DNA from: Steroidobacteraceae bacterium
GTDB taxonomy: Bacteria; Pseudomonadota; Gammaproteobacteria; Steroidobacterales; Steroidobacteraceae
DNA: 64,000 nucleotides
NCBI GenBank assembly: GCA_036267535.1
Contig: DATAVX010000105.1
Coordinates: forward strand, 237 to 64,236
Direction: 5' to 3'
Position numbers and translations under genes: made by a program. This document shows, one piece after another, positions 5,403 through 17,022 of the stretch; positions within the stretch are counted from its first letter, which is position 1; every line of letters begins with the position of its first letter. The notes beneath the pieces are model-generated. The model was not told the origin of the DNA, did no database searches, and worked only from the letters and a program-made list of their open reading frames with translations.

Positions 5403-6368
5403 ATGAGGGCCTCGAAAAAGATGTTCACATTGTCGCGAAGGGATTTTTTGGCAGCAACAACGGCACTCCTGGCGGCCCGAGCCAGCGTTGCTTCAAACGC
5501 CCACCCCTTTTTCCAACGCACCGGTCTGCCCATAGGACTGCAGCTTTATACCGTCGGCGATGATCTGAATCGAGATTTTGACGGGACCTTGGCAGCGGTT
5601 GCAAAAATCGGCTATCGCACAGTCGAATTGGCCGGCCTGGCGAACCGCACCGTGGCCGATTGGCGTCAGGCGCTCGATCGCACGCAGCTGAAATGTCCTT
5701 CGATCCATGTTCCTCCCCACGCGAAGTCGGGCGCCAGCTTGGATGATCTTGGAGCACTGGCGGAGACGGCGCATGCCCTGGGTATCGGCACGATTATTTG
5801 CCCGATGTTCAACATGCCCGAGCGCTTTACTGTGCAGCCGTTGCCCGGCGAAGACAGCGGCAGAACGTTGGCTCGGCTCGTCGCTTCCATGACGCTGGAT
5901 GATTGGAAGTCGAACGCGGAGTATCTCAACGCCAAGGGCAAAGCGCTGCAGCAGTATGGACTTCGCTTCGGCTATCACAATCACAACGTCGAACTCGCAC
6001 CGATCGGCAACAGCAACGGACTGGCTGAATTGATACGCGGCACCGATCCTGCGCTCGTGACGTTCGAGATGGATGCAGGCTGGGTGGTCGCGGCGGGAGC
6101 GGACCCGCTGGCGCTGTTGGCCGCGCATCCGCGCCGCTTTAGCGCAATGCACGTAAAGGACGTCAAGGCCGGCACGCGTCCCAATTTCAGCCTGCGGCAA
6201 GATCCCTGTGAAGTTGGACAGGGCATCATCGATTGGAAGACGCTGTTGGCGAGGGCGCACGCGTCGAATGTGCGTCAGTTCTATGTGGAGCAAGAGCCGC
6301 CCTTCAATAAGCCGCGGCTTGAATCCGCGGCCATCAGTTTCAACTTTCTCAACAGCTTGGTGGCTTGA
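5403..6368 (+). CDS. Tat-exported sugar phosphate isomerase/epimerase (xylose-isomerase-like TIM barrel)
   Basis: A twin-arginine signal (LSRRDFLAATTALLAARASVA) is followed by TIM-barrel family blocks (YRTVELAG, GYHNHNVEL, MDAGW, FYVEQE). Confidence 0.85.
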   Translation: MRASKKMFTLSRRDFLAATTALLAARASVASNAHPFFQRTGLPIGLQLYTVGDDLNRDFDGTLAAVAKIGYRTVELAGLANRTVADWRQALDRTQLKCPSIHVPPHAKSGASLDDLGALAETAHALGIGTIICPMFNMPERFTVQPLPGEDSGRTLARLVASMTLDDWKSNAEYLNAKGKALQQYGLRFGYHNHNVELAPIGNSNGLAELIRGTDPALVTFEMDAGWVVAAGADPLALLAAHPRRFSAMHVKDVKAGTRPNFSLRQDPCEVGQGIIDWKTLLARAHASNVRQFYVEQEPPFNKPRLESAAISFNFLNSLVA

Positions 6369-6373
6369 GCGCC

Positions 6374-7192
6374 ATGCCCAGCCGCAAAGTCGCCACGGGC
6401 ACCATTCGAGTCGGCGTCGGCGGCTGGACCTACGAGCCCTGGCGCGGCACTTTCTATCCCGCCGATTTGCCGCAAAAGCGCGAGCTCGAACACGCCAGCC
6501 GTCAATTCACTTCAATCGAGATCAATGGCACCTACTACGGCGCCCAAAAGCCCGCCAGTTACGAGAAATGGCACGACGAGACGCCGGATGATTTCGTTTT
6601 TTCGCTGAAGGCCCCGCGTTTCGCCGTGAATCGCACCGTCCTGGCCGAAGCCGGCAACAGCATCGCGCGGTTCTTCGCCAGCGGTCTTACGGAGCTCAAG
6701 GAAAAGCTTGGACCAATCAATTGGCAATTTCTGCCGGGCAAGAAATTCGACCCTGCCGACTTCGCAGCATTCCTCAAGCTTCTGCCCCAAGAGGCGGGAG
6801 GCCGCTCGCTGCGTCACGTCGTCGAGGTGCGGCACGAGAGCTTCGCCACGCCTGATTTCATCGCATTGGCGCGAGAACATGGAGTCGGCGTGGTAATCGC
6901 GGGCGACTCGGCGTATCCGCAGATTGCCGACTTCACCGCGCCGTTCGTCTACGCCCGGATAATGGGCACTAAAGCGGAGGATGCGTCTGGTTACTCCGAG
7001 ACCGCTCTCGATCTTTGGGCCGCCCGCGCACGCGCATGGGCCTCGGGCAGTGCCGCGGAAGGCCTCACCTACGTGCAGCCCGGAGCGAGCGATGCCGTGC
7101 CTCGCGATGTGTACCTCTACGTGATCAGCGGCCACAAGGTCCGCAATCCCGCCGCTGCGGCGGCGCTGCTCAAGCGCCTCGCCCAAGCCTGA
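6374..7192 (+). CDS. DUF72 (YecE/UPF0759) family protein
   Basis: GVGGWTYEPWRGTFYPADLPQKRELEHASRQFTSIEINGTYYG is the hallmark DUF72 N-terminus. The start is taken at ATG 6374; the ORF track starts at TTG 6365, which overlaps the previous stop. Confidence 0.85.
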   Translation: MPSRKVATGTIRVGVGGWTYEPWRGTFYPADLPQKRELEHASRQFTSIEINGTYYGAQKPASYEKWHDETPDDFVFSLKAPRFAVNRTVLAEAGNSIARFFASGLTELKEKLGPINWQFLPGKKFDPADFAAFLKLLPQEAGGRSLRHVVEVRHESFATPDFIALAREHGVGVVIAGDSAYPQIADFTAPFVYARIMGTKAEDASGYSETALDLWAARARAWASGSAAEGLTYVQPGASDAVPRDVYLYVISGHKVRNPAAAAALLKRLAQA

Positions 7193-7334
7193 GCTTGCTC
7201 GACGGTCAGGGATGAGTCTGCTGCAGCGTCTGCCGCAGAAACGGCTGCAATTCCCTATCTGCCTGGCCGTGGGCGAAATCGGTAAACAGGACCGGCCAGA
7301 GCATCAACTCAAGCGCCAATTTAATTGTTCATAG

Positions 7335-9620
7335 CTACTGCCTAATTGGAATGTCGACATAGCTGTCGCCGTACCATCGAACCTTAATGGGTATCTTGCC
7401 GTCCGCCACGGATTCTTCACTCACATCGCCGCCGGTGCCGTAGTTGATCTCTCGATCGGGGCGCTTGGCGACGCTCAGCACGATGGCGAGACGGCTACCC
7501 GGCTGCAGCTGCCGGCTCGTCATGCGCTCGCTCTTGAAGGAGAGCTTTTGCCGTTCTCCCGCCTTCAGTAGATGCCGATGAACCCGGTCCGGCGCATAGC
7601 TCGCGCGCATCTCGTAGGTCGGACTGAAGAGTCGAATGTAGTCGCCGCTCGGAAGTTGCTCGTACAACGTGATGTTCAGGTCCAGATCCATTTTATTGAC
7701 CGCGAAATCAAGGCGGCCGGAAAACAAGCCATTAATGATGATCGTCTTGGTGAGCGGCTCGCTTACGAAGATCGCGCCGTGGCGGGGGGCGAGGCTTTTG
7801 CTGATGTAATCCGTGGGCGGCGTCCAAGCCGCGTCCTTGCGCTCAACAAGGTTCACGACCTGTTGAACGGCGCCATCGCCCGGTTTCTTGTGCAGATTCA
7901 GCCGATGATTTCCAGCAATGACCGCGGCATCCAGGTAGTAGCGCTGTGAAGCATTCGCTGTTCCCTCCAGTGATCCGGCGTGGTGCCACTCGTTTGCGCC
8001 CATCACCTCGTAATTGACCGGGGCGGACAGCAGCGCCGGCAGCGCCGTGCCTTTGAGAACATGATCAAGCCACTCGAAGCGCAGCTCTCGCAAGTCGACG
8101 AGCGCCGCGGGATCCACTTGATACCCATGCAAATTGGCTGAGGGCCCAGCGCGCATCGCGTCGGCGTCATATGGACCGATGAGCAGAGTGTGATCCGCAT
8201 GCGGGTTGTACTGATGATGCTGCGTGAAATAATAAAGATCGCCCGGAGCGGCGGCGGCGTAGTAACCGCTCATCGTGAGCACCGGAATGTTGATGTGCGA
8301 AAACTGTCGACGGTATGGCACGAACTTCTGCCAGTAGCCGTCGTAGCTCGGATGATTGAGCCAACGAATGAAAATCGGGTTGTGTTTTCCGTACAGCCGG
8401 CCCATGTCTCGATAACGCCTGCCGCTGCGGTACCACTTCTCGTCGAGGGCGTGCCACTTTGCGGCGTCTTCCTTCTCATTCACATCCGCCGCGCCATCCT
8501 CGTTCATCCGCAAAGACCAGCCATACGCCGCGTTCTGAAAAATATTGCCGGCCATCGGGAAATTGATTCCGGGTGCGCTTGCTGCAAAAGTGGCTATGGC
8601 CTTGAGCGCCGGCGGCAAGCGCTTGGCGGCGGCCCATGGCGCAAAGCCGCTGTAGCCATCGCCGTACATTGCCACCCGGCCGTCGCTCCAGGATTGCTTC
8701 GCGATCCAATCAATCGCCAGGCGCGCATTGGCTCCGACCAGATCCAAAGGATCGATGCCGCCCGGAGGCTTCGGTTTCCCGACCGTGAAGGCGACCACGC
8801 CCGCATAGCCGCGCGCGGCGCATTCCTTGGCATAGTTCTGTGATTCATCAGCGGCGAATTCAAGAAGCGCCGGCATGGACTTCGCCCCGCCGTTTGGACG
8901 AACCACAACGATTGAGATATCGGTTCCACCAGAACCCTTGATATGGACGCCGCTGTCGCTGGTATAGCGCCGATGGTCATCCTCCGCATTCAAGAGCACT
9001 ACCAGCGAACCGAAAGTCCGATAAGCATCAAAGGACACATACTTCCAAATCAGGTCAATTGCTTCGGACTCATCGACACTGTCCTTGCCGCGATACTGAT
9101 CCAAGTCTCTTTGCAAGGCTTCGCGATATGTCGCGGGGGACGCGCCGAGCCAGTGCGCGACGGCGAAGGCGTCGCGGTCATCCAGGCGCCGTACGGTTTC
9201 CCGGTACGTGGCGGTAAATGACTCGGCGAAAGTGATACGGCGTTCAGTTTCCACGGCCTTGGCGTGGGCGTACATGTCGAATATCACGGCGCGCCCTATC
9301 GGATGCCCGAAATCCGATTTTCGCCGCCGCTCGCGCAGCGATGACCTGGAAATGTCGGCGGCGGCGAAGTCGCCGACGGCCATTTGCAGCGCGGACAGAT
9401 TTGCCAGATATCGCTCTGGATCCGAGTCCTGATAGACGGGAATGAGCCGCGACGCCAAGTCGCTCATCGTCGCGGCGGTGGCGGCATCGAGCGGCGAAGC
9501 CGGCGCGCGGAAATCGAAATCCGGCGCGCTCCATCCTGGCGAGGCGAAGAAAAGCAGGGTCAGCACCGCAATTCGCATTCCGTGCAGGACGCGGGATCGA
9601 CGCAGTGGCAGCCGCTTCAT
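7335..9620 (-). CDS. CocE/NonD (peptidase S15 / X-Pro dipeptidyl-peptidase) fold protein with a signal peptide, an N-terminal helical extension, and an apparently absent catalytic triad
   Basis: Fold blocks are present: WIAKQSWSDGRVAMYGDGYSGFAPWAAA, LNHPSYDGYWQKF and LLIGPYD, plus a C-terminal jelly-roll region. The signal peptide is MRIAVLTLLFFASPGWSA. The start ATG overlaps the upstream ABC gene stop (ATGA). See the findings for the triad substitutions. Confidence 0.85.
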   Translation of the reverse strand: MKRLPLRRSRVLHGMRIAVLTLLFFASPGWSAPDFDFRAPASPLDAATAATMSDLASRLIPVYQDSDPERYLANLSALQMAVGDFAAADISRSSLRERRRKSDFGHPIGRAVIFDMYAHAKAVETERRITFAESFTATYRETVRRLDDRDAFAVAHWLGASPATYREALQRDLDQYRGKDSVDESEAIDLIWKYVSFDAYRTFGSLVVLLNAEDDHRRYTSDSGVHIKGSGGTDISIVVVRPNGGAKSMPALLEFAADESQNYAKECAARGYAGVVAFTVGKPKPPGGIDPLDLVGANARLAIDWIAKQSWSDGRVAMYGDGYSGFAPWAAAKRLPPALKAIATFAASAPGINFPMAGNIFQNAAYGWSLRMNEDGAADVNEKEDAAKWHALDEKWYRSGRRYRDMGRLYGKHNPIFIRWLNHPSYDGYWQKFVPYRRQFSHINIPVLTMSGYYAAAAPGDLYYFTQHHQYNPHADHTLLIGPYDADAMRAGPSANLHGYQVDPAALVDLRELRFEWLDHVLKGTALPALLSAPVNYEVMGANEWHHAGSLEGTANASQRYYLDAAVIAGNHRLNLHKKPGDGAVQQVVNLVERKDAAWTPPTDYISKSLAPRHGAIFVSEPLTKTIIINGLFSGRLDFAVNKMDLDLNITLYEQLPSGDYIRLFSPTYEMRASYAPDRVHRHLLKAGERQKLSFKSERMTSRQLQPGSRLAIVLSVAKRPDREINYGTGGDVSEESVADGKIPIKVRWYGDSYVDIPIRQ

Positions 9621-11443
9621 TGCGGATTTCCGCCGTCAATGCGCGATGCAGCCCGCTCGCCGTCGCTGCCTGCGGACTCGGTCTTCGATGAATCCTTGGG
9701 CAACTTGATAAGGTGCAGGGTTGCGGAAAACAGATCGTGCGCCTCGCCGGCACTGCCCACGTGGATAATGCCCGTGTGCTTGAGCTCCTTGGTAAACACA
9801 TCAATGACCAGCGCGAGCACATCGTCATCGAGCAATCCGAAGGTTCCGTCGATGAGCACCCAGGGCGGCATCTGTATCAGCATGCGCGCAAATACCAGGC
9901 ATAGCTGTTCGTCCTGGCTCAGCTCGCGGTCCCAGCGGCGAGTCTCATCGACCAGCGGCGCGAGGCGTTCGAGACCCAAGCGGAACAACGCGCGCGTAAA
10001 GGCGTCGGCGGTGAAATTCTCGGCCTTCAAAGGATACGCAAGCACCTCTCGCAGGCTGCCTCGCGGCAAGTACGGGGTGCCGCGCGGCAAATAGAATATC
10101 TGCTCGCCCTGGGGGCGCGTGACGCGGCCCGAACCCCAGGGCCACAAGCCTGCCAGGGCGCGGAAGAACTGGGTCTTTCCCGTTCCCGGCGCCCCCAGAA
10201 TGAGCACGCGCGAGCCGGCCTCGACGACCACTTTCAATTCCCGCAGCTTGTCGGCATGCGCAGAGGAAGTGCTCTCGAGTTTTTCCATCATGATTCTGCC
10301 CGGATCGCCTTCCGCGTACACGATGCGGCTTTCAAAACCGCGCGGCTCGTCGGTGGAAACGACGGCGTGGCGAAAAGTGGCCACGCGCAGCAATGTGGCG
10401 CGCCAATCGGCAATCACGCTGAAATTGTCGACGAACCAGCGCAGCGAGGATTGCGCCTGGGTGAACGCGGCAGCGGCCATCATTAATCCGCCGAAGGAAA
10501 CTTTGCCGGTGAAATACAGCGGGGCGGCCACCAGGATCGGTGCCACGATGGTCACCCAGCCGAATCCGGCAGTAACCCATTCAAGATTTGTGTGGCCCCA
10601 AACGATGCGCCGTGTTGCGCGCAAAACATCCACCAGACGGCGTTCGATGCGGCGCCTCTCGTCTGCCTCGCCTTGCGCAAGCGATATATCGTCGACATGC
10701 TCGTTGACGCGGACCAGCGAGAAGCGCAGGTCAGCCTCTCGCGCGTAGCGCTCGGCGTTGCGATTGATGAGCCCCCGCCCAACCCAGTAGCTCACCAGCG
10801 AGCCCGCACTTGCGTACAGAATGGCCGCCCACAGCATGAATCCCGGAATAGAGTAATCTCGGTCGCCGAAATGAAGGGTAAAGGTGCTGGACAGCCCCCA
10901 CAGGATGCCGGCAAACGTGCCGAACAGGATAGAGGCCTGAAAAAGGCCGATTCCCAGTCCGCCCGAGAGCTCGCACAATTTTCTTGCGTCCTCGTGGATG
11001 CGCTGGTCCGGATTGACCCCCATCGTGCCGCTGCTGGCGAGCCAGAATGCCCGCCGCGGCAACAGCCAGTCGCGCAGCAGACTTCGAACCAGCCCCTCTC
11101 GCAGTCTCACCTGCAGCATCTCCGCGAGCCAGCGCTGCGTCACGTTGAGAGCAAGAATGCAGCCGGCGATCACGAAGAAAACGCCGAGTTGGAACAGGAA
11201 GTCCCTCAGGTCGCGCCGTGAGAGCGCATCGTAGAATGGCTTGTTCCAGCTATTGAGCCGGATCTGTCCGTACGCCGTGGCCAAGATGACAAGCACGATC
11301 GCCGTCAGGAGAACCGCGATTTTCTTGCCCACGCCGGAGCTGGAAATCGCGCGGATCATCAATGTCAGCTGCCGCAGGAAGCCTAAGTGCACTACTTTGG
11401 CATCCGGTGCAGTGCGCGGTTTTGTCGTCGCGGGATCTGTCAC
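9617..11443 (-). CDS. SbmA/BacA-type (YddA-like) ABC half-transporter, fused TMD and NBD, with a degenerate NBD
   Basis: The TMD block NSWNKPFYDALSRRDLRDF...RWLAEMLQVRLREGL is typical of the SbmA_BacA/ABCD-like family. The NBD has Walker A GAPGTGKT and LAGLWPWGSG. The other ATPase motifs deviate (see findings). Confidence 0.85.
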   Translation of the reverse strand: MTDPATTKPRTAPDAKVVHLGFLRQLTLMIRAISSSGVGKKIAVLLTAIVLVILATAYGQIRLNSWNKPFYDALSRRDLRDFLFQLGVFFVIAGCILALNVTQRWLAEMLQVRLREGLVRSLLRDWLLPRRAFWLASSGTMGVNPDQRIHEDARKLCELSGGLGIGLFQASILFGTFAGILWGLSSTFTLHFGDRDYSIPGFMLWAAILYASAGSLVSYWVGRGLINRNAERYAREADLRFSLVRVNEHVDDISLAQGEADERRRIERRLVDVLRATRRIVWGHTNLEWVTAGFGWVTIVAPILVAAPLYFTGKVSFGGLMMAAAAFTQAQSSLRWFVDNFSVIADWRATLLRVATFRHAVVSTDEPRGFESRIVYAEGDPGRIMMEKLESTSSAHADKLRELKVVVEAGSRVLILGAPGTGKTQFFRALAGLWPWGSGRVTRPQGEQIFYLPRGTPYLPRGSLREVLAYPLKAENFTADAFTRALFRLGLERLAPLVDETRRWDRELSQDEQLCLVFARMLIQMPPWVLIDGTFGLLDDDVLALVIDVFTKELKHTGIIHVGSAGEAHDLFSATLHLIKLPKDSSKTESAGSDGERAASRIDGGNPQ

Positions 11444-11538
11444 GGGTTCAGCGCCCCTCCTGTCGGACTTTACACGTATGCACGCGATGGCGTCCCGACC
11501 ACGTGTTATTCCTACACCCTGTCCGTCTCACAATGACA

Positions 11539-13065
11539 TCAGTTTCGCAGGATTGCGCGGAGCATCGACATCCCGCGGCGGATCTCGGTCAAATCCACCG
11601 TGCCATAGCCGAGCACCAGTCCGGCCCTGGTTGGCGGTCCCAGGAAGTATCTGCTCAAGGTATGCATTTTGACGTGCTGCTGTGCCAACGCGGCGCTCAC
11701 TGCCTCGAGATCAACACGAGTGAGAGGTTCGGCCGCAACATGCATGCCGTAGAGGCAGGGGACGGGCACCAGCCATTCGCTCAAGGTGTCCCGCAATGAG
11801 CTCAACAGCAATTGTCGGCGCGCACGGTAGATCTCGCGCATTTTGGCGACATGGCGCGTCAGATGACCCTCGCTGATGAATGCGGCGACTGCGCTTTGAA
11901 TCGGCGTCGCGCAATGCCAATCGAAGCAATTTTTAGCGGCGGTCAAAGTATTGATAGCCCAGCTCGGGGCGACGATGAAACCGAGGCGCAACGCCGGCAG
12001 CATGCATTTTGAGAATGTGCCGACATAGAAGACCACGTCCATCGCACGCACCGCACGCAGCGCCGCGAGCGGGCTGCCCTCGTACCGAAACTCCCCGTCG
12101 TAGTCATCCTCGATGATCACCGCGCCGTGTTCGCGAGCAAATTCGAGCAGCGCCTCGCGCCGGCGCATCGACATGGTGATGCCCAGAGGGAATTGGTGCG
12201 ACGGAGTCACGCAGATGATGCGTACGCCGGGCGGCAGCCGTTCGACCATCAGACCTTCTGCATCGACGCCGATGGGAACCAGCCGGGCGCCCGCAGCTGC
12301 AAATGCCACGCGCATCGGCGGATAGCCCGGATCCTCCAGCGCAACGATGGTTTCGTCGGGTGTGACCAGCGCTCGGGCAAGCAGATCGAATGCCTGCTGC
12401 GCTCCGGAGGTCACGAGTATTTCCTCGGCCTCGCAAGCCACGGCACGCGTGATGGCAATGTGCCTGACGATCGCCTTGCGAAGATAGAAGTTGCCCTGAT
12501 TGCCCTGCGGGCTTTTGTAGCTCGCCGGTTTCCTTTCCAGGCCTCGCAGTTGCTTGGCGCTAACGCGCCGAAATACGTCCAGCGGAAAAAGCCTGGAGTC
12601 GACCATCGCAGGACGAAAATCGATCAGCGCGCCTTTGCGCGTGAGTGGCTCGGCTTCGGGCGGGTCGCGCCAGAAACTCATTGCCGCCGTAACGTCGGGA
12701 CGCAGCCAAAATCCGTTTATCCGATGCCGCAATGGCTGTTCCGCCGAAGGCCGCGTTGTTGCAGCCCGCGGCGGAATTATTTCCGCAACGTAGGTACCCG
12801 CACCGTGCCGGGTGACCGCGTGACCCTCCGTCACCAACCTCTCATAGACTTCTGCGGCGGTATTGCGCGAGACGCCGAAGAACTCAATCGATCTTCGCGT
12901 GGCGGGCAATTTTATGCCTGCCGCCAGGCGTCCATCGACGATGGCGGCTTTTAACTCACCATGCAGCGTCCGCGAGGATTCTCGTGAGCCGGCCGGCTCG
13001 AGATCGAGCTTAATCTCGAAAAAAGGCTCGAATGCCTGTCTACGCCGTGAGCGAGAGTGGCCCAA
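11539..13065 (-). CDS. MocR/PdxR-type regulator (GntR winged helix fused to a fold-type-I aminotransferase-like domain)
   Basis: The N-terminal wHTH reads LPATRRSIEFFGVSRNTAAEVYERLVTEGHAVTRHGAGTYV. The C-terminal PLP-fold carries the Lys motif GTFSKCMLPALRLGF. Confidence 0.9.
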   Translation of the reverse strand: MGHSRSRRRQAFEPFFEIKLDLEPAGSRESSRTLHGELKAAIVDGRLAAGIKLPATRRSIEFFGVSRNTAAEVYERLVTEGHAVTRHGAGTYVAEIIPPRAATTRPSAEQPLRHRINGFWLRPDVTAAMSFWRDPPEAEPLTRKGALIDFRPAMVDSRLFPLDVFRRVSAKQLRGLERKPASYKSPQGNQGNFYLRKAIVRHIAITRAVACEAEEILVTSGAQQAFDLLARALVTPDETIVALEDPGYPPMRVAFAAAGARLVPIGVDAEGLMVERLPPGVRIICVTPSHQFPLGITMSMRRREALLEFAREHGAVIIEDDYDGEFRYEGSPLAALRAVRAMDVVFYVGTFSKCMLPALRLGFIVAPSWAINTLTAAKNCFDWHCATPIQSAVAAFISEGHLTRHVAKMREIYRARRQLLLSSLRDTLSEWLVPVPCLYGMHVAAEPLTRVDLEAVSAALAQQHVKMHTLSRYFLGPPTRAGLVLGYGTVDLTEIRRGMSMLRAILRN

Positions 13066-13179
13066 TTATTTTTCCTCCAAGTGGCCCTTCAGGAGAGGGT
13101 TGCCACGGTCGCAAAATCTCACCGATGACAGCTTAGCGCCGGCGGGGGCGCGACGGCCCATTCTTGGCTAGAAATATTC

Positions 13180-13686
13180 ATGGAGACGGCGATGCAGTTC
13201 TCAAAATCGATCGCGATCGGCCTTCTGACCGCCGGCGCCGGGATGTGGATTGCACCCTCGAGCGCGTCGGGCGAGGCGGCTGACCCCTTCTCTGGGGGCT
13301 CCAAATCGATCGAACTGGATGGCATCGTCACAGTGCGAAAAGTCTGGGGTGGACGTGCCCAATTGGAAGAGATCGAGACCGACGGTCCGAACGGACATTG
13401 GGAAGGCTTGACATTGTTTCTCTACGATCCAGCCGCACATCAGTGGCGCCAGTCCTTTGTCAACAGCGAACAAGGCGTTCTCGCACCGCCGCTGGTCGGA
13501 TCCTTCAAGAATGGCCGCGGCGCATTGTTTGCTTCCGATACGTTCAAAGATCGGTCGATCCTGGTGCGCGGGGTGTGGTCGGACATCAAATCAGACTCGC
13601 ATCACTACGAGGAATCGTACTCGGGCGACGGCGGCAAGACCTGGATGCCGGCCTTTATTGCCGATCTCAGCCGAGAAAAGCCATGA
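13180..13686 (+). CDS. Secreted hypothetical protein (beta-rich, DUF1579-like pattern)
   Basis: The signal peptide is MQFSKSIAIGLLTAGAGMWIAPSSASG. The C-terminal ...EESYSGDGGKTWMPAF is typical of small secreted beta-barrel proteins. The gene is divergent from the MocR gene. The start could instead be ATG 13192. Confidence 0.6.
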   Translation: METAMQFSKSIAIGLLTAGAGMWIAPSSASGEAADPFSGGSKSIELDGIVTVRKVWGGRAQLEEIETDGPNGHWEGLTLFLYDPAAHQWRQSFVNSEQGVLAPPLVGSFKNGRGALFASDTFKDRSILVRGVWSDIKSDSHHYEESYSGDGGKTWMPAFIADLSREKP

Positions 13687-13714: not shown

Positions 13715-13863
13715 TTCTGGCGCGCTGCTCAGGGCGGTCTGCATTTTGTCCTACCGGGGCGTGTAGGACATTCCCGACGTCCGGTTAAGTGCTTCGGCCT
13801 TGCGAATTGCGCGCCCAGAGGAGGATAAGTCAGCTTCAACATCTACAACAACAAGGATTGCCG

Positions 13864-14502
13864 ATGTCGCGAGTACTGATTGCCGACGATCATGCCGTTG
13901 TGAGGGCGGGTTACAGGCAATTTCTCGAGGCCGAAGCCGGTATCACGGCAATCGGCGAGACCGCCAGCGGCAATGAGACGTTGGACCAGTTGCGTCAACA
14001 GCCGTGGGACCTGCTGCTGATGGACATCCACATGCCCGACCGCAGCGGCCTGGATATTCTGAAGCATGTCACCAGCGGTTTCCCCAAGGTGCGCGTGCTT
14101 ATCATGAGCGGACTACCCGAGGCCCAGTATGCTCGTAACGTGCTTCGCGCCGGCGCCAGCGGCTACCTTTCCAAGGGCGGCTCGCCGGAGGAACTATTGA
14201 AAGCGGTGCGCACCGTGCTGGTCGGACGCCGCTACGTCAGCGCTGCCCTCGCCGAAGCGATGGCCGCCGATCTCGAATCCGACCACGATCAAAATCAGCC
14301 TTTACACGAAAGACTATCCGTCCGAGAGTTCCAAATCTTCGGCAAATTGGCAGCCGGGTCCGGCGTCGGGGAAATAGCCGATGAATTGAGCCTGAGCGTC
14401 AAAACGGTCAGTACGTATCGATCGCGAATTCTGGAGAAGATGAATTTCAGCAGCAACGCGGACATGACGGCGTACGCACTGCGCAACGGCCTCATTTTAT
14501 AG
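13864..14502 (+). CDS. NarL/FixJ (LuxR-type) response regulator, with no adjacent histidine kinase
   Basis: The receiver domain reads VLIADDHAVVRAGY...DLLLMDIHMPDRSG...KVRVLIMSG. The LuxR HTH reads LSVREFQIFGKLAAGSGVGEIADELSLSVKTVSTYRSRILEKM. The start is taken at the internal ATG 13864. Confidence 0.9.
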   Translation: MSRVLIADDHAVVRAGYRQFLEAEAGITAIGETASGNETLDQLRQQPWDLLLMDIHMPDRSGLDILKHVTSGFPKVRVLIMSGLPEAQYARNVLRAGASGYLSKGGSPEELLKAVRTVLVGRRYVSAALAEAMAADLESDHDQNQPLHERLSVREFQIFGKLAAGSGVGEIADELSLSVKTVSTYRSRILEKMNFSSNADMTAYALRNGLIL

Positions 14503-14530: not shown

Positions 14531-15217
14531 CTACCGCCTCGGAACGATTGGCGCAACATTGGCATTTGATACCCAGCCGGAGCGGCCGGCCCGCGTCAGA
14601 ATGAGCGTGTATCCCTCGTGCTGGGCGGCGAGCTTGACGGTTTCGCCTTCCGCCAGAGTAAATAAGGCATCCCCCATCGGCACCGGAGAGACCCGGACCG
14701 GGGTTGCCGCCACAATCACAACTCCTGAATGCAACCTTGGCCACAGCGCAATGCCATTGCAGACGGTCAGACTCACCATGCACAATCCCAATAGGACACC
14801 GGCATGGCGCAAGCGCCGATACCGCGCCGTAGATCGTCCCAACAGCATGCATGCGCCCGCCATCGTCAAACCCACAATGCCGAGCCACGATAGAACGGAG
14901 GGACTGGCGATTCCGGCAATGCGATCGAAGGTGCTGCGCGTTGCGGGAGGCAAATGCGCGGAAGCACGCACAAACTGCAAGTTGGCCGCCACATCCGGAT
15001 CATCCGGCACGAGCAATCCCGCGCGCTCGTAATTGAGCACCGCCATGCCTGGTTTGCCGGCGCGCGCATAGGAATTCGCGAGATTGTAGAGGTCCGCGGC
15101 GGAATAGCCGGCCGGCGCCTGCGGCGGAGCCGCACGCGCCTGAAGGGGGCCCAGCAGCAAGCCAGCGCCGGGCAGCAAGCAAGCAAACAGACACAAGGCG
15201 CGTGCCCATGCGCTCAT
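14531..15217 (-). CDS. BatE-like TPR plus SH3 domain membrane protein (last gene of the Bat-type operon)
   Basis: After a signal peptide come a TPR unit (AADLYNLANSYARAGKPGMAVLNYERA), TM helices, and a C-terminal SH3-like region (VRVSPVPMGDALFTLAEGETVKL...GWVSNANV). The start ATG overlaps the batD stop (ATGA). Confidence 0.7.
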   Translation of the reverse strand: MSAWARALCLFACLLPGAGLLLGPLQARAAPPQAPAGYSAADLYNLANSYARAGKPGMAVLNYERAGLLVPDDPDVAANLQFVRASAHLPPATRSTFDRIAGIASPSVLSWLGIVGLTMAGACMLLGRSTARYRRLRHAGVLLGLCMVSLTVCNGIALWPRLHSGVVIVAATPVRVSPVPMGDALFTLAEGETVKLAAQHEGYTLILTRAGRSGWVSNANVAPIVPRR

Positions 15218-17022
15218 GCAGACTTCTCGCTCGCCAATTGGCCGCGAACTACGTTGAGCCATCGAACAAAATCGGTGGTGTTCGGCGCGCGCCCGGAATA
15301 TTTCGATTCATCCGCGAGCGCAAACAGCCGGCGAAGGTCGTTGTCTGCTCCAATTCTGGAATCAAGCTCGGAAGTGGTGACGTCTTCGGGCATCAGCTGC
15401 CACCGTGCTGCAAGCAAACGCTGCAGGGCGCTGCGCGCCGAATCGAAGAATAGCGTCTCGTTGCCATGATGAGCGGCTGCTTCCAATTGCGCCATCACCC
15501 GTTTGGTCGAATCGCTCTTGCCATCCCAGCGAGGCCTCAGCCCGAGGCACGCTGCCGCAAATGCCAGCATTAGAAATGAAGGAAGTGCGAGAAACTTCGG
15601 CTGCAAGTACAGCGGCGTCAGAGTGGGCCTCGGTGCGTCGACGGCGGCATGATCGGCCCGCAAACCGGCTGCCGATTTCGGCGTGCCGCTTGCCGCGGCA
15701 TTCGCGGCCACCTGAGGCGCAGTCAGCACACTGTCGGCTAAAGCCGGCGATATGGTCACGCTGAGAGGCGCTCCGCGCGCCGTCTCATAACGCCGCGAAT
15801 TCGGATCGAAGTAGCTAAACGACAGGGCGGGCAGCGTTTGCACGCCAGGTTTCGAAGCGATGACCGGTTGCTCGAAGGTCTTCATTCCGCTAAATCCAAT
15901 CGGATCGCTGGTATTGAAGGACGACTTCGGCGGATAGGTCTTCCACCGATCGACGTGATCGAGCATTCCGCTATCGACGCGATCGAAGCTTCCAGACCCC
16001 GAAATGCGCATGCGCAGCGTCACTGGGTCGCCGACATCGGCCTTGGCGGGGAAAATATCGCTGACAATGTTGAATGTGCCGATGGCACCATGAAAATCGG
16101 CTGGCCGCCCTTGGACGGGCAAATCCAAGACCTTCAGCTCTTGCGGCGGACTTGTAACTTCAATGTCCTTCGGGACGGTCGTGCCGAACAGATTCTGCCA
16201 GAACGGATCCCCGAACCGATCCTCCAAGAGCGCATCCCGCTTGGACCGAGTTCTAATTTTGACGGTCAGCGGAGCAGCGGCGGACAGCGAGAATGTACCC
16301 GGCTTGATCACTGAAAGGAGGCTGCGCCAAGTAAACAAGACGAATGGCTCGCCGTTGATCAATTTTTCGCTGCGCTCCGGTTGATGCGAGAGATTGTTGA
16401 GCGTGAAATTATCTCCCGTAAGCTTGGGCAACCCATTCAACGAGGACACGAATCCGGAGCGCATTCCGACCTCGATTTCGGCCGGAACGCTCTCACCGAC
16501 ATAAATTTCGCGCTTCGGAATACTGAGGCGGACATAGGCGGAGCCATCGTCGGTCAAGTGCACGCCCTTGGGAAGCGAGCCTCCGGACAAAATAGGCGGC
16601 GCAAGCGGCGCCGCGGGCGCGCCGGCGCGGGGCACGTAGGCGCCACTCGGTGCTGCATTCACCTGCAACACGAGTGGTTGAGACTTCGGCGTTACCGCCG
16701 GAATCGTGAAAATCCCGGCGATCTGCGGCGTCACGCGCATGACGGTCGACGCTGAGGGCAGAGTCGTTCCGTTTATGATTTGAATCTCATGCGTGCGTGC
16801 GACAATCTCGAATTTCAGCCCGGCGACCACCGGCATGGTGATCGGGTTCGTGCCGTCTCCTAGATTTGTAATCGTGAACTGCGCGGATTCGCCCAAGCTA
16901 ATCTGGGCGGGCTGAATCGTCGCGTATACCAACGGATCATCGGCAAGCGCCGTCGCTGCGCCAAGAAGGCCCATCAGGACCGTGGCGAACAACCAGCGGC
17001 TAATGAGTTGTTTCCTGCTCAT
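15214..17022 (-). CDS. batD: BatD-family (oxygen-tolerance) protein
   Basis: A signal peptide is followed by repeated beta-sandwich-like modules (...ATIQPAQISLGESAQFTITN...), a late TM helix, and a C-terminal cytoplasmic tail. The position matches Bat operons. ATG 17022 overlaps the batB stop (TAATG). Confidence 0.8.
   Translation of the reverse strand: MSRKQLISRWLFATVLMGLLGAATALADDPLVYATIQPAQISLGESAQFTITNLGDGTNPITMPVVAGLKFEIVARTHEIQIINGTTLPSASTVMRVTPQIAGIFTIPAVTPKSQPLVLQVNAAPSGAYVPRAGAPAAPLAPPILSGGSLPKGVHLTDDGSAYVRLSIPKREIYVGESVPAEIEVGMRSGFVSSLNGLPKLTGDNFTLNNLSHQPERSEKLINGEPFVLFTWRSLLSVIKPGTFSLSAAAPLTVKIRTRSKRDALLEDRFGDPFWQNLFGTTVPKDIEVTSPPQELKVLDLPVQGRPADFHGAIGTFNIVSDIFPAKADVGDPVTLRMRISGSGSFDRVDSGMLDHVDRWKTYPPKSSFNTSDPIGFSGMKTFEQPVIASKPGVQTLPALSFSYFDPNSRRYETARGAPLSVTISPALADSVLTAPQVAANAAASGTPKSAAGLRADHAAVDAPRPTLTPLYLQPKFLALPSFLMLAFAAACLGLRPRWDGKSDSTKRVMAQLEAAAHHGNETLFFDSARSALQRLLAARWQLMPEDVTTSELDSRIGADNDLRRLFALADESKYSGRAPNTTDFVRWLNVVRGQLASEKSA

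What the first reader, a model, noticed from the sequence alone, without database searches (positions are those of the whole stretch)
7335..13065. Possible undescribed module: MocR regulator, degenerate ABC protein and triad-less periplasmic CocE/NonD protein
The ABC gene stop and the CocE/NonD-like start overlap (ATGA at 9617-9620). The two unusual proteins are therefore co-translated, one in the inner membrane and one exported. Both have lost catalytic residues but keep long intact frames. That is hard to explain by chance decay, and it suggests a functional pair, for example a periplasmic ligand-capture protein feeding or gating an SbmA-like peptide or antimicrobial-peptide importer, or a sensor. 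A MocR/PdxR-type regulator lies 95 bp upstream on the same strand. That spacer contains an inverted hexamer ACACGT-N23-ACGTGT (about 11472-11506), 29-63 nt upstream of the ABC start, which could be an operator.
Basis: inference. Interest (0 to 1): 0.68.

Follow-up and report, generated by a model that had tools for sequence, protein, structure and literature searches.

The report
Dead-ATPase transporter with pseudo-hydrolase partner
Two overlapping genes encode an SbmA/YddA-type membrane transporter whose ATPase motifs are dead and an exported cocaine-esterase-like protein without its catalytic triad; the two are always found together, are sometimes fused, and in most related bacteria sit inside beta-1,2-glucan-degrading operons, so they are probably a new kind of sugar-polymer importer rather than a peptide importer.

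Summary
The three minus-strand ORFs, the ATGA overlap at 9617-9620, the loss of catalytic residues in both proteins and the inverted hexamer are all present.

The ABC/CocE-like pair is a real, selected unit:
- The two genes are adjacent in 76/76 genome loci and 67/70 metagenome loci.
- A 4-nt overlap occurs in at least 61/74 loci.
- They are fused into one 1,369-aa protein in one lineage.
- dN/dS is 0.03-0.19 in every domain.

The CocE-like protein belongs to a triad-less clade derived from active ~750-aa hydrolases. The three active relatives checked are not ABC-linked. The ABC keeps only Walker A; the Q-loop, signature, Walker B Glu and H-loop His are all lost.

MocR is not part of the module. 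It accompanies the pair in 13 of the 146 loci where both genes were seen, always with a divergent DUF1579-like gene. The proposed operator is neither conserved nor beyond chance.

The context argues against a peptide substrate. Most relatives carry the pair within GH3 / GH144 endo-beta-1,2-glucanase / GH15-like clusters whose enzymes lack signal peptides.

My best reading is a non-ATP-hydrolysing importer of periplasmic beta-1,2-glucans with a pseudo-enzyme receptor. It is a new variant of the YddA/Rv1819c/SbmA kind. The function is inferred, not shown.

The parts
7335..9620 (-). Exported CocE/NonD-like pseudo-hydrolase (761 aa): signal peptide, all-helical N-domain, alpha/beta-hydrolase-like domain and PepX_C beta-sandwich
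   Evidence: Pfam/NCBIfam hits. AF2 model with pLDDT 93.9. Foldseek top hit is CocE, E 4e-36, TM 0.75-0.78.
9525..9620 (-). Sec-type signal peptide (residues 1-32)
   Evidence: The sequence shows this directly. A hydrophobic segment is present in homologues and is retained as the linker in the natural fusion P0249.
8967..9488 (-). N-terminal all-helical domain (residues ~45-218). No Pfam match. Shared with active relatives.
   Evidence: AF2 secondary structure. No family hit. Representatives align from residues 20-50 onward.
8655..8657 (-). G322 at the position of the CocE nucleophile Ser117
   Evidence: Alignment to CocE. The position is A/G in 120 of 121 aligned close sequences (one Asp, never Ser). 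It is Ser in only 5 of 81 genome-set sequences.
8256..8258 (-). A455 at the position of CocE Asp259
8163..8165 (-). A486 at the position of CocE His287. This position is never His anywhere in the paired clade.
9617..9620 (-). ATGA stop/start overlap between the ABC and CocE-like genes (translational coupling)
   Evidence: The same 4-nt overlap is seen in at least 61 of 74 related loci and in L082, L083, L086 and L087.
9617..11443 (-). YddA/Rv1819c/ABCD-type half-transporter (608 aa): SbmA_BacA-like TMD plus a catalytically degenerate NBD
   Evidence: Pfam. Rv1819c 6tqe at 2.5e-53. YddA at 26% identity, 1e-60. SbmA hhalign probability 95.7%.
10172..10195 (-). Walker A GAPGTGKT, intact here. In distant orthologues it is degenerate, e.g. 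GAPGTNRT.
10079..10084 (-). R454-G455 in place of the Q-loop glutamine
9905..9922 (-). LSQDEQ in place of the LSGGQ signature
9842..9859 (-). Walker B VLIDGT. The catalytic Glu is replaced by Gly533. D-E was seen in none of the 121 closest homologues and in none of the genome-set or metagenome-set motif variants listed for the paired ABCs.
9752..9754 (-). S564 at the position of the H-loop histidine
   Evidence: Alignments to Rv1819c and YddA.
11444..11538 (-). 95-nt spacer upstream of the ABC gene. It holds two conserved boxes, TGTAGGAATAACA (11504-11516) and CGTGTAAAGTC (11466-11476), and a GGAGG ribosome-binding site.
   Evidence: Both boxes are also present in MocR-less L003, and the second box also in MocR-less L008. 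No sigma-70 consensus and no terminator were found.
11539..13065 (-). MocR/PdxR-type regulator (508 aa, PLP lysine K353). A lineage-specific neighbour, not a conserved part of the pair.
13180..13686 (+). Secreted DUF1579-like protein, divergent from MocR and always co-occurring with it. It is the more likely MocR target.

Best explanation
The ABC gene (9617-11443) and the CocE-like gene (7335-9620) encode the two subunits of one inner-membrane transport complex.

- Membrane subunit: a YddA/Rv1819c/SbmA-type homodimeric half-transporter. Its nucleotide-binding domain is kept as a conserved structural or regulatory domain but can no longer hydrolyse ATP. Transport is therefore most likely driven as in SbmA (proton gradient), or pulled by cytoplasmic hydrolysis of the cargo.
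- Periplasmic subunit: a CocE/NonD-fold protein that has lost its Ser-Asp-His triad. It docks on the periplasmic face as a substrate receptor or lid.
- Probable cargo: a large hydrophilic glycan, most likely linear or cyclic beta-1,2-glucan or its oligomers. It would be imported for breakdown by cytoplasmic GH144 endo-beta-1,2-glucanase, a GH15-like enzyme and GH3 beta-glucosidase.

This window carries a reduced form of the locus: the pair without the hydrolases, with a MocR + DUF1579-like cassette inserted upstream.

Shown: the partnership, the degeneracy of both proteins, purifying selection, the context, and the predicted locations. Inferred: physical docking, direction of transport, energy source and substrate.
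For: Partnership:
- Anchoring on the CocE-like protein in 185,579 species genomes gave 173 relatives, all Steroidobacteraceae/Steroidobacterales MAGs among the 80 kept. The ABC lies directly upstream in 76/76 loci where both genes are visible.
- Anchoring on the ABC in metagenomes gave 67 adjacent pairs, plus 3 loci where only GH144 and GH15 lie between the two genes.
- The 4-nt overlap is conserved.
- P0249 (1,369 aa) is an ABC::CocE-like fusion. Its cluster has 4 members from ENA, JGI, Logan and SRC; three are full length (1,368-1,369 aa) and one is a 551-aa fragment. The junction is NBD C-terminus, then a hydrophobic helix, then 'FQFRAP'. This is the topology expected for cytoplasmic NBD to periplasmic domain.

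Both proteins are selected:
- dN/dS is 0.03-0.09 for the NBD and 0.09-0.19 for the triad-less domain.

The degeneracy is clade-wide:
- No canonical Walker B Glu or Q-loop Gln was seen in the paired ABCs examined, and the H-loop His is lost. The Walker A lysine is even lost in some orthologues.

Loss of the triad coincides with the partnership:
- Representatives at about 44% identity or more lack the triad. Those checked (P0246, P0249, P0264, P0265, P0268) are ABC-linked.
- Representatives at 43% identity or less keep GGSYxG / GYxD / GPYDH. The three checked (P0255, P0262, P0266) have no ABC neighbour.

Glycan context:
- 57 of 64 informative metagenome loci and 41 of 66 genome loci carry GH144+GH15(+GH3), or a 995-aa discoidin + GH15-like protein, next to the pair. 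This includes the isolate Solimonas aquatica, where GH144-GH15-ABC-CocE-like all overlap by 4 nt.
- The GH144 matches the C. pinensis endo-beta-1,2-glucanase 5gzh at 5e-138.
- These hydrolases lack signal peptides: 0/28, 0/32, 1/29 and 0/16 show an N-terminal hydrophobic segment, whereas the CocE-like protein has one.

Precedent:
- Relatives of this transporter family (SbmA, BacA, BclA, Rv1819c) import large hydrophilic cargo. SbmA does so without an NBD, using protons (PMC13316013, PMC12003926).
Against: - No experiment exists. No co-fold of the complex could be run.
- The window itself has no GH144, GH15 or GH3 gene within 64 kb. Sixteen genome loci likewise show the pair with no hydrolase. 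The substrate in this organism may therefore differ.
- The SbmA 'glutamate ladder' is only partly matched. Three of six aligned positions are acidic, in a 23%-identity alignment, so proton coupling is not demonstrated.
- Walker A is intact in most members, so ATP binding and some ATP-dependent gating cannot be excluded.
- The fold of the periplasmic partner derives from esterases and peptidases, not from any known sugar-binding protein.
- Co-location with hydrolases shows a functional link but not the direction of transport.
Confidence: 0.5

Rival explanations
1. One reading: a peptide or antimicrobial-peptide importer. The periplasmic pseudo-peptidase captures proline-rich or other peptides and hands them to the SbmA-like channel.
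For: The transporter is homologous to SbmA/BacA/BclA/Rv1819c. The partner descends from the X-Pro dipeptidyl-peptidase/CocE family. E. coli yddA sits in an operon with the periplasmic protease pqqL. The window itself has no glycosidase nearby.
Against: No peptidase, peptide-binding protein or peptide-related gene recurs next to the pair. The recurrent neighbours are GH144, GH15-like and GH3. The organisms are free-living soil and freshwater Steroidobacterales/Nevskiales, not host-associated.
Confidence: 0.13
2. The pair is a sensor rather than a transporter. A pseudo-transporter plus a pseudo-enzyme detects a periplasmic ligand and signals through the dead NBD to a cytoplasmic partner.
For: Both catalytic activities are lost while the domains stay under strong purifying selection. 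The NBD is more conserved than the TMD in the closest comparisons (dN/dS 0.03-0.04).
Against: No regulator is conserved next to the pair. MocR is present in 13 of 146 loci; LuxR, GGDEF and kinase neighbours are sporadic. The pair lies inside operons of catabolic enzymes with overlapping stop/start codons, which is typical of a transporter.
Confidence: 0.1
3. The complex exports, or retains and remodels, the cell's own periplasmic beta-1,2-glucans (OPG or cyclic glucan). The cytoplasmic hydrolases trim precursors.
For: The transporter has a type IV exporter-like fold. Beta-1,2-glucans are typically self-made periplasmic polymers (PMC11842490).
Against: No glucan synthase or glycosyltransferase is in any of the loci. 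A dead ATPase is a poor engine for export. The known cyclic-glucan exporter Cgt is reported as a separate ABC transporter; my reading that it is MsbA-like and of a different ABC family rests on my own knowledge. Endo-glucanase plus beta-glucosidase indicates catabolism.
Confidence: 0.1
4. The CocE-like protein is still an enzyme using relocated residues, for example an esterase that removes succinyl or acetyl groups from substituted glucans before uptake. It would then not be a pseudo-enzyme.
For: A conserved Ser sits two residues after the old nucleophile position (G-x-G/A-Y-S-G). A conserved acidic pair, GPYD[DE], sits at the old His position. Five of 81 family members have Ser at the nucleophile position.
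Against: The His position is never His anywhere in the clade, and the Asp position is mostly Ala. S324 is Gly in 26 of 121 close homologues.
Confidence: 0.1
5. In this particular lineage MocR controls the pair, through the upstream spacer.
For: MocR is on the same strand, 95 nt upstream, with no terminator between. The arrangement recurs in 9 genome and 4 metagenome loci. The spacer holds two conserved boxes about 42 bp apart (GTGTA...GTGTA), a spacing compatible with MocR-type dimers.
Against: The same boxes occur upstream of the ABC gene in L003, which lacks MocR, and the second box in L008. The inverted hexamer itself is not conserved and is at chance level. MocR always travels with the divergent DUF1579-like gene, and its own conserved repeat, GGGCCAC-N17-GGGCCAC, lies in that divergent region.
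Confidence: 0.15

Closest known systems
Rv1819c (Mycobacterium tuberculosis) and BclA (Bradyrhizobium): BacA-like full-length ABC importers of hydrophilic cargo
   Same: Best solved-structure match (6tqe, E 2.5e-53, residues 74-562). Same architecture: an SbmA_BacA/ABC_membrane_2 TMD followed by an NBD in one polypeptide. Presumed homodimer and importer.
   Different: Rv1819c and BclA need ATP hydrolysis (PMC12003926). Here the Q-loop, signature, Walker B Glu and H-loop His are all replaced. The Gly after the Walker B Asp matches the residue in the deposited 6tqe chain; from my own knowledge that chain is the engineered hydrolysis-dead E576G variant. Neither known protein has a dedicated periplasmic partner.
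SbmA/BacA (SLiPT family), proton-driven importers
   Same: Homologous TMD (Pfam SbmA_BacA 2.7e-19; hhalign 95.7%). Transport without ATP hydrolysis is the mode proposed here.
   Different: SLiPTs have no NBD at all, plus extra TM0 helices and a complete glutamate ladder. Here the NBD is retained under strong selection, and only 3 of 6 ladder positions are acidic in a weak alignment. SLiPTs have no periplasmic subunit.
E. coli YddA-YddB-PqqL operon (and, from my own knowledge, the Pectobacterium Fus ferredoxin-uptake system)
   Same: YddA is from the same ABC family (26% identity, E 1e-60). It is encoded in one operon with a periplasmic protease-fold protein. That is a precedent for pairing this transporter family with a periplasmic hydrolase-fold partner.
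   Different: YddA has canonical ATPase motifs. PqqL is an active M16 metalloprotease of unrelated fold. A TonB-dependent receptor is part of that operon but not of this one.
CocE (Rhodococcus cocaine esterase) and alpha-amino-acid ester hydrolases (Peptidase S15 / CocE-NonD family)
   Same: Same three-domain fold (Foldseek E 4e-36, TM 0.75-0.78). TIGR00976 scores 149 bits, above its cutoff.
   Different: The Ser-Asp-His triad is replaced by Gly/Ala/Ala. There is an extra ~175-residue helical N-domain and a signal peptide. The protein is obligately paired with a transporter.
Known beta-1,2-glucan gene clusters (SGL/SOGP clusters with a type I ABC importer and sophoro-oligosaccharide-binding protein; Cgt exporter)
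   Same: In related genomes the pair sits beside a close GH144 homologue (5e-138 to 5gzh) and a GH3 beta-glucosidase, as in described SGL clusters (PMC12102758, PMC11842490).
   Different: Described clusters use a classical solute-binding-protein ABC importer. Here the transporter is of the YddA/SbmA type with a dead NBD, and the periplasmic component is a pseudo-hydrolase. The endo-glucanase is predicted to be cytoplasmic. The papers I searched do not mention this pair.

Membership tests
CocE/NonD (Peptidase S15) hydrolases | Three-domain fold: alpha/beta-hydrolase core, helical insert and C-terminal PepX_C beta-sandwich | tested here: met
   PF02129 at 3.4e-26, PF08530 at 7.6e-07, TIGR00976 at 149 bits. 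AF2 pLDDT 93.9. Foldseek hit to CocE with TM 0.75-0.78.
CocE/NonD (Peptidase S15) hydrolases | Catalytic Ser-Asp-His triad (GxSYxG nucleophile elbow, GxxD, GPxxH) | tested here: not met
   G322/A455/A486 in the window. His is absent in every member of the paired clade. The triad is present in more distant representatives.
ABC transporters, YddA/Rv1819c/ABCD (type IV) family | ABC_membrane_2-type transmembrane domain fused to an ABC NBD fold | tested here: met
   PF06472 at 4.6e-36 and PF00005 at 5.9e-08. Rv1819c at 2.5e-53. YddA at 1e-60.
ABC transporters, YddA/Rv1819c/ABCD (type IV) family | Walker A P-loop GxxGxGK[ST] | tested here: met
   GAPGTGKT in the window. Intact in 43 of 80 metagenome orthologues and degenerate in the rest, e.g. 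GAPGTNRT and AAPGTAKS.
ABC transporters, YddA/Rv1819c/ABCD (type IV) family | Catalytic set: Walker B Asp-Glu, Q-loop Gln, LSGGQ signature and H-loop His | tested here: not met
   D532-G533, R454/G455, LSQDEQ and S564. Conserved as non-canonical in the homologues examined.
SLiPT (SbmA/BacA) secondary transporters | SbmA_BacA-type TMD | tested here: met
   PF05992 at 2.7e-19. hhalign to E. coli SbmA: 95.7% probability, E 8e-09.
SLiPT (SbmA/BacA) secondary transporters | Absence of an NBD and of coupling helices | tested here: not met
   A ~210-residue NBD is present and under strong purifying selection, dN/dS 0.03-0.09. Coupling helices were not examined.
SLiPT (SbmA/BacA) secondary transporters | Glutamate ladder (SbmA E193, E203, E269, E276, E287, E378) for proton coupling | tested here: inconclusive
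   Aligned residues are E151, S160, R, N, E and D. The alignment has 23% identity, so single-residue register is unreliable.
MocR/GabR-type PLP-dependent regulators (for ORF 11539-13065) | N-terminal GntR winged HTH plus fold-type-I aminotransferase-like domain with a PLP lysine | tested here: met
   PF00392 at 1.6e-12 and PF00155 at 1.6e-23. NF052282 PdxR scores 372 against a cutoff of 320. K353 lies in the TFSK motif.
MocR/GabR-type PLP-dependent regulators (as part of this module) | Conserved co-occurrence with the regulated genes, and a conserved operator | tested here: not met
   MocR is next to the pair in 9/76 genome and 4/70 metagenome loci. The inverted hexamer is not conserved. The conserved boxes are also present without MocR.
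Beta-1,2-glucan utilisation (SGL) gene cluster | GH144 endo-beta-1,2-glucanase and beta-glucosidase encoded next to the transporter | tested here: not met
   No GH144, GH15, GH3 or 995-aa homologue in the 64-kb window. The feature is met in related loci: 33 metagenome and 3 genome loci with GH144 and/or the GH15-like enzyme, plus L082, L083, L086, L087 and L088.
Classical binding-protein-dependent ABC importers (type I/II) | Periplasmic solute-binding protein of the SBP fold, separate permease and ATPase subunits | tested here: not met
   The periplasmic partner has a CocE fold, not an SBP fold. The TMD and NBD are fused and of type IV.

The most novel reading that the evidence does not exclude
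This is a previously undescribed class of glycan importer. It would be a homodimeric YddA/SbmA-type transporter whose NBD has become a non-hydrolytic pseudo-ATPase, obligately coupled (and in one lineage fused) to a periplasmic pseudo-esterase that acts as receptor, taking up whole beta-1,2-glucans for cytoplasmic endo-hydrolysis. It would also be a living intermediate on the route recently proposed for the origin of proton-driven SLiPTs from YddA-like ABC transporters: NBD inactivated but not yet lost.
Probability: 0.35. Interest if true: 0.85.

Novelty: new variant of a known kind. Interest (0 to 1): 0.7.

Why it matters
If correct, it would give three things.
1. The first natural ABC-fold transporter family in which both ATP sites of the homodimer are dead yet conserved. 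That bears directly on how ABC transporters turned into secondary transporters such as SbmA (PMC13316013).
2. A new role for an alpha/beta-hydrolase pseudo-enzyme, as the extracytoplasmic receptor of a transporter.
3. A missing uptake step for beta-1,2-glucans, polymers important in symbiosis, pathogenesis and osmoadaptation, in abundant soil Gammaproteobacteria.

A cultured carrier exists: Solimonas aquatica, protein WP_093285306.1. The hypothesis is therefore directly testable.

Tried and rejected
1. Decay or pseudogenes. Rejected: frames are intact in more than 150 loci and dN/dS is 0.03-0.19.
2. MocR operator. The inverted hexamer is at chance level and not conserved.
3. First AF2 run with 32 close homologues gave pLDDT 46.6 and was discarded. 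The second run with 93 diverse sequences gave 93.9.
4. Anti-phage defence. PADLOC gave only one marginal P-loop hit, 6e-04.
5. TonB-receptor or peptidase partners, as in yddA-yddB-pqqL. No such conserved neighbour was found.
6. Identity of the 995-aa upstream protein. No PDB sequence match. Only weak GH15/TIGR01577 (2e-13) and discoidin hits.
7. A sigma-70 promoter scan of 7100-13300 found nothing.
8. The endonuclease/exonuclease/phosphatase gene downstream in Solimonas is unique to that locus.
9. Glutamate-ladder mapping onto SbmA was inconclusive.
10. Literature searches for the pair, for CocE/NonD pseudo-enzymes and for GH144+GH15 clusters found no prior description.
11. Pocket inspection of the AF2 model was not possible, because the scripting environment has no access to the coordinates.

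Full report
**1. What is in the sequence**

Three minus-strand ORFs occupy 7335-13065.

- 11539-13065 (508 aa) is a MocR-type regulator. It has a GntR HTH and an aminotransferase-like domain, and the NCBIfam PdxR model scores 372 against a cutoff of 320. The PLP lysine K353 is present.
- 9617-11443 (608 aa) has an ABC_membrane_2 / SbmA_BacA transmembrane domain and an ABC_tran domain. Its best solved relative is M. tuberculosis Rv1819c (6tqe, E 2.5e-53). E. coli YddA is 26% identical (E 1e-60).
- 7335-9620 (761 aa) is a CocE/NonD-family protein (TIGR00976, 149 bits). It has a Sec-type signal peptide and an extra all-helical N-domain.

The ABC stop and the CocE-like start overlap in ATGA at 9617-9620. 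The MocR-ABC spacer is 95 nt and contains ACACGT-N23-ACGTGT at 11472-11506. Every coordinate in the finding is correct.

**2. Are the catalytic residues really gone?**

- Against CocE, Ser117/Asp259/His287 align with G322/A455/A486.
- Against Rv1819c and YddA, Walker A is intact (GAPGTGKT). The Q-loop Gln is R454/G455, the signature is LSQDEQ and Walker B is D532-G533.
- The canonical H-loop His aligns with S564. The nearby H561 is not the H-loop residue.
- The Gly after the Walker B Asp is also what the deposited 6tqe chain carries at that position. From my own knowledge, that chain is the hydrolysis-dead E576G variant used to trap the transporter.

These states are conserved:
- in the 120 closest homologues of each protein;
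- in 80 species-representative genomes;
- in 80 metagenome loci.

Walker B is never D-E among the 121 closest homologues. Neither D-E nor a Q-loop Gln appears among the motif variants listed for the paired ABCs in the genome and metagenome sets. The CocE-like His position is never His.

In distant orthologues even Walker A decays. Examples are GAPGTNRT, which has lost the lysine, and AAPGTAKS.

**3. Decay or function?**

Function. dN/dS against five relatives is:
- 0.05-0.12 for the TMD;
- 0.03-0.09 for the dead NBD;
- 0.09-0.13 for the N-domain;
- 0.09-0.19 for the triad-less hydrolase-like domain;
- 0.09-0.15 for the C-domain.

With a diverse alignment, AF2 gives a confident model (pLDDT 93.9, pTM 0.91). 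Its best structural matches are CocE and the alpha-amino-acid ester hydrolases (E 4e-36, TM 0.75-0.78).

**4. Is the pair a unit?**

- A scan of one genome per bacterial species, anchored on the CocE-like protein, found 173 relatives. The 80 kept are all Steroidobacteraceae, Steroidobacterales or unclassified gammaproteobacterial MAGs at 53-80% identity.
- The ABC lies directly upstream in all 76 loci where both genes can be seen. The 4-nt overlap occurs in at least 61 of 74.
- The reverse test, anchored on the ABC in metagenome contigs, found the CocE-like gene directly downstream in 67 of 70 informative loci. In the other three, only GH144 and GH15 genes are inserted between the two.
- One lineage encodes a single 1,369-aa ABC::CocE-like fusion. 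Its cluster has four members from four independent sources. Three are full length; one is a 551-aa fragment.
- The fusion junction runs from the NBD C-terminus into a hydrophobic helix (PIALLLALALLLPALLAP) and then the conserved 'FQFRAP' start of the mature periplasmic protein. This is the topology required if the two proteins work as one complex across the membrane.

**5. Where did the pseudo-enzyme come from?**

An exhaustive search of 1.84 billion representatives gave 382 relatives at E <= 1e-30.

- Those at about 44% identity or more to the window protein lack the triad.
- Those at 43% identity or less have the same ~750-aa architecture but keep GGSYxG, GY[YF]D and GPYDH.

Neighbourhood look-ups gave a clean split:
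- Triad-less members P0246, P0249, P0264, P0265 and P0268 are ABC-linked. P0250 probably is too.
- Active members P0255, P0262 and P0266 are not.

In this sample, loss of catalysis and recruitment to the transporter go together.

**6. MocR and the 'operator'**

MocR precedes the pair in only 9 of 76 genome loci and 4 of 70 metagenome loci. It is always accompanied by the divergent DUF1579-like gene at 13180-13686.

The inverted hexamer is exact only in this window. Also, 41% of shuffled spacers and 59% of 95-nt tiles of the window contain such a repeat.

What is conserved in the spacer are two boxes: TGTAGGAAT(T/A)ACA at 11504-11516 and CGTGTAAAGTC at 11466-11476. They also occur upstream of the ABC gene in L003, which has no MocR. 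The second box occurs in MocR-less L008 as well. They therefore belong to the ABC gene's own control region.

The MocR/DUF1579 divergent spacer has its own conserved repeat, GGGCCAC-N17-GGGCCAC. MocR is best read as a lineage-specific insertion with its own target. Local control of the pair is not excluded.

**7. What does the context say about function?**

Outside the window's own subclade, the pair sits in glycoside-hydrolase operons.

- In Solimonas aquatica, a cultured Nevskiales isolate, and in several metagenome lineages the order is GH3 (divergent), GH144, GH15-like, ABC, CocE-like. In Solimonas the last four genes (GH144, GH15-like, ABC, CocE-like) are linked by 4-nt overlaps.
- The GH144 matches the Chitinophaga endo-beta-1,2-glucanase at 5e-138.
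- In most Steroidobacteraceae, a 995-aa discoidin + GH15-like protein takes the upstream position.
- Overall, 57 of 64 informative metagenome loci and 41 of 66 genome loci are hydrolase-linked.
- None of these hydrolases shows an N-terminal hydrophobic segment (0/28, 0/32, 1/29, 0/16), unlike the CocE-like protein.

An endo-acting beta-1,2-glucanase in the cytoplasm implies that glucan chains, not just glucose, cross the inner membrane. The SbmA/BacA/BclA/Rv1819c family is known for importing large hydrophilic cargo (PMC12003926, PMC13316013).

The window itself has no such hydrolase within 64 kb. The substrate assignment for this organism therefore rests on orthology only.

**8. Mechanism proposed**

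- Shown: two conserved, coupled and sometimes fused subunits; one in the membrane with a cytoplasmic dead NBD, one predicted to be exported; both under purifying selection; both embedded in beta-1,2-glucan catabolic operons in relatives.
- Inferred: the CocE-like pseudo-enzyme docks on the periplasmic face and captures the glycan. [quoted passage not shown] The energy comes from the proton gradient, or from cytoplasmic hydrolysis acting as a sink. The NBD pair serves as a dimerisation or gating module, possibly still binding ATP where Walker A is intact.

The SbmA glutamate ladder is only partly matched in a weak alignment, so proton coupling remains open.

**9. Comparison with what is known**

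The transporter is a homologue of YddA, Rv1819c and BclA but fails the catalytic-motif test for an active ABC ATPase. It resembles SLiPTs in being non-hydrolytic but fails the 'no NBD' criterion.

A 2026 study proposes that SLiPTs arose from YddA-like ABC transporters by loss of the NBD (PMC13316013). This family looks like a parallel or intermediate state, with the NBD inactivated but retained.

The E. coli yddA-yddB-pqqL operon is a precedent for pairing this ABC family with a periplasmic hydrolase-fold protein, but there both proteins are catalytically canonical.

Literature searches found no description of the pair, of CocE/NonD pseudo-enzymes, or of this transporter in beta-1,2-glucan clusters.

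**10. Verdict**

The pair is right. MocR, the operator and the peptide substrate are not.
- It is a new variant of a known kind.
- The function is a well-motivated inference, testable in Solimonas aquatica.

Noticed in passing
window 13057-13087 (minus strand), MocR / DUF1579-like divergent spacer 13066-13179: Direct repeat GGGCCAC-N17-GGGCCAC. It spans the MocR ribosome-binding site and TTG start and is nearly invariant in all 10 MocR-bearing loci. It is a candidate MocR auto-operator.
   Followed up: partly
window 11466-11476 and 11504-11516: Two boxes upstream of the ABC gene, CGTGTAAAGTC and TGTAGGAATAACA, each containing GTGTA, 42 bp apart. They are conserved in 10 loci, and also in L003 (both boxes) and L008 (second box), which lack MocR. 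The scan found no sigma-70 consensus, so the regulator or sigma factor is unknown.
   Followed up: partly
window 13789-14502 (+): A LuxR/NarL-type response regulator stays 86-95% identical across loci whose neighbouring genes are only 60-85% identical. That is unusually strong conservation for this region.
   Followed up: no
L109 892-2556 (metagenome contig Ga0209624_10003680): A second, paralogous ABC of the same family lies next to GH3 and the 995-aa GH15-like gene. It keeps the Walker B Asp-Glu (VIIDEV) but has lost the Walker A lysine (GESGIGTA). That is a different route to a degenerate NBD.
   Followed up: partly
L124, L138, L159 (also L140, L150): Permuted operon order: GH3 (divergent), ABC, GH144, GH15, CocE-like. 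The four genes stay together even where the ABC/CocE-like overlap is broken.
   Followed up: partly
L083 8196-8945 (Solimonas aquatica FOFS01000007.1): An endonuclease/exonuclease/phosphatase-family gene overlaps the end of the CocE-like gene by 4 nt. It is found only in this locus. It could act on phospho-substituted glucans.
   Followed up: partly
L015 5175-8162 and about 60 related loci: A 995-aa cytoplasmic protein with an F5/8-type-C (discoidin) domain and a weakly GH15/TIGR01577-like six-hairpin domain. It has no PDB sequence match and is the commonest upstream neighbour of the pair. It is probably an uncharacterised glycoside hydrolase family.
   Followed up: partly
window 14531-17028 (-): A BatD-like 604-aa protein and an SH3-domain 243-aa protein, with overlapping genes, are conserved upstream of the region in the closest relatives. 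This looks like an aerotolerance (Bat)-type operon and appears unrelated to the pair.
   Followed up: no
window 5403-7192 (+): A Tat/Sec-signal xylose-isomerase-like TIM-barrel protein and a DUF72 protein, with a 4-nt overlap, lie convergent to the CocE-like gene. They are syntenic only in the closest clade.
   Followed up: no
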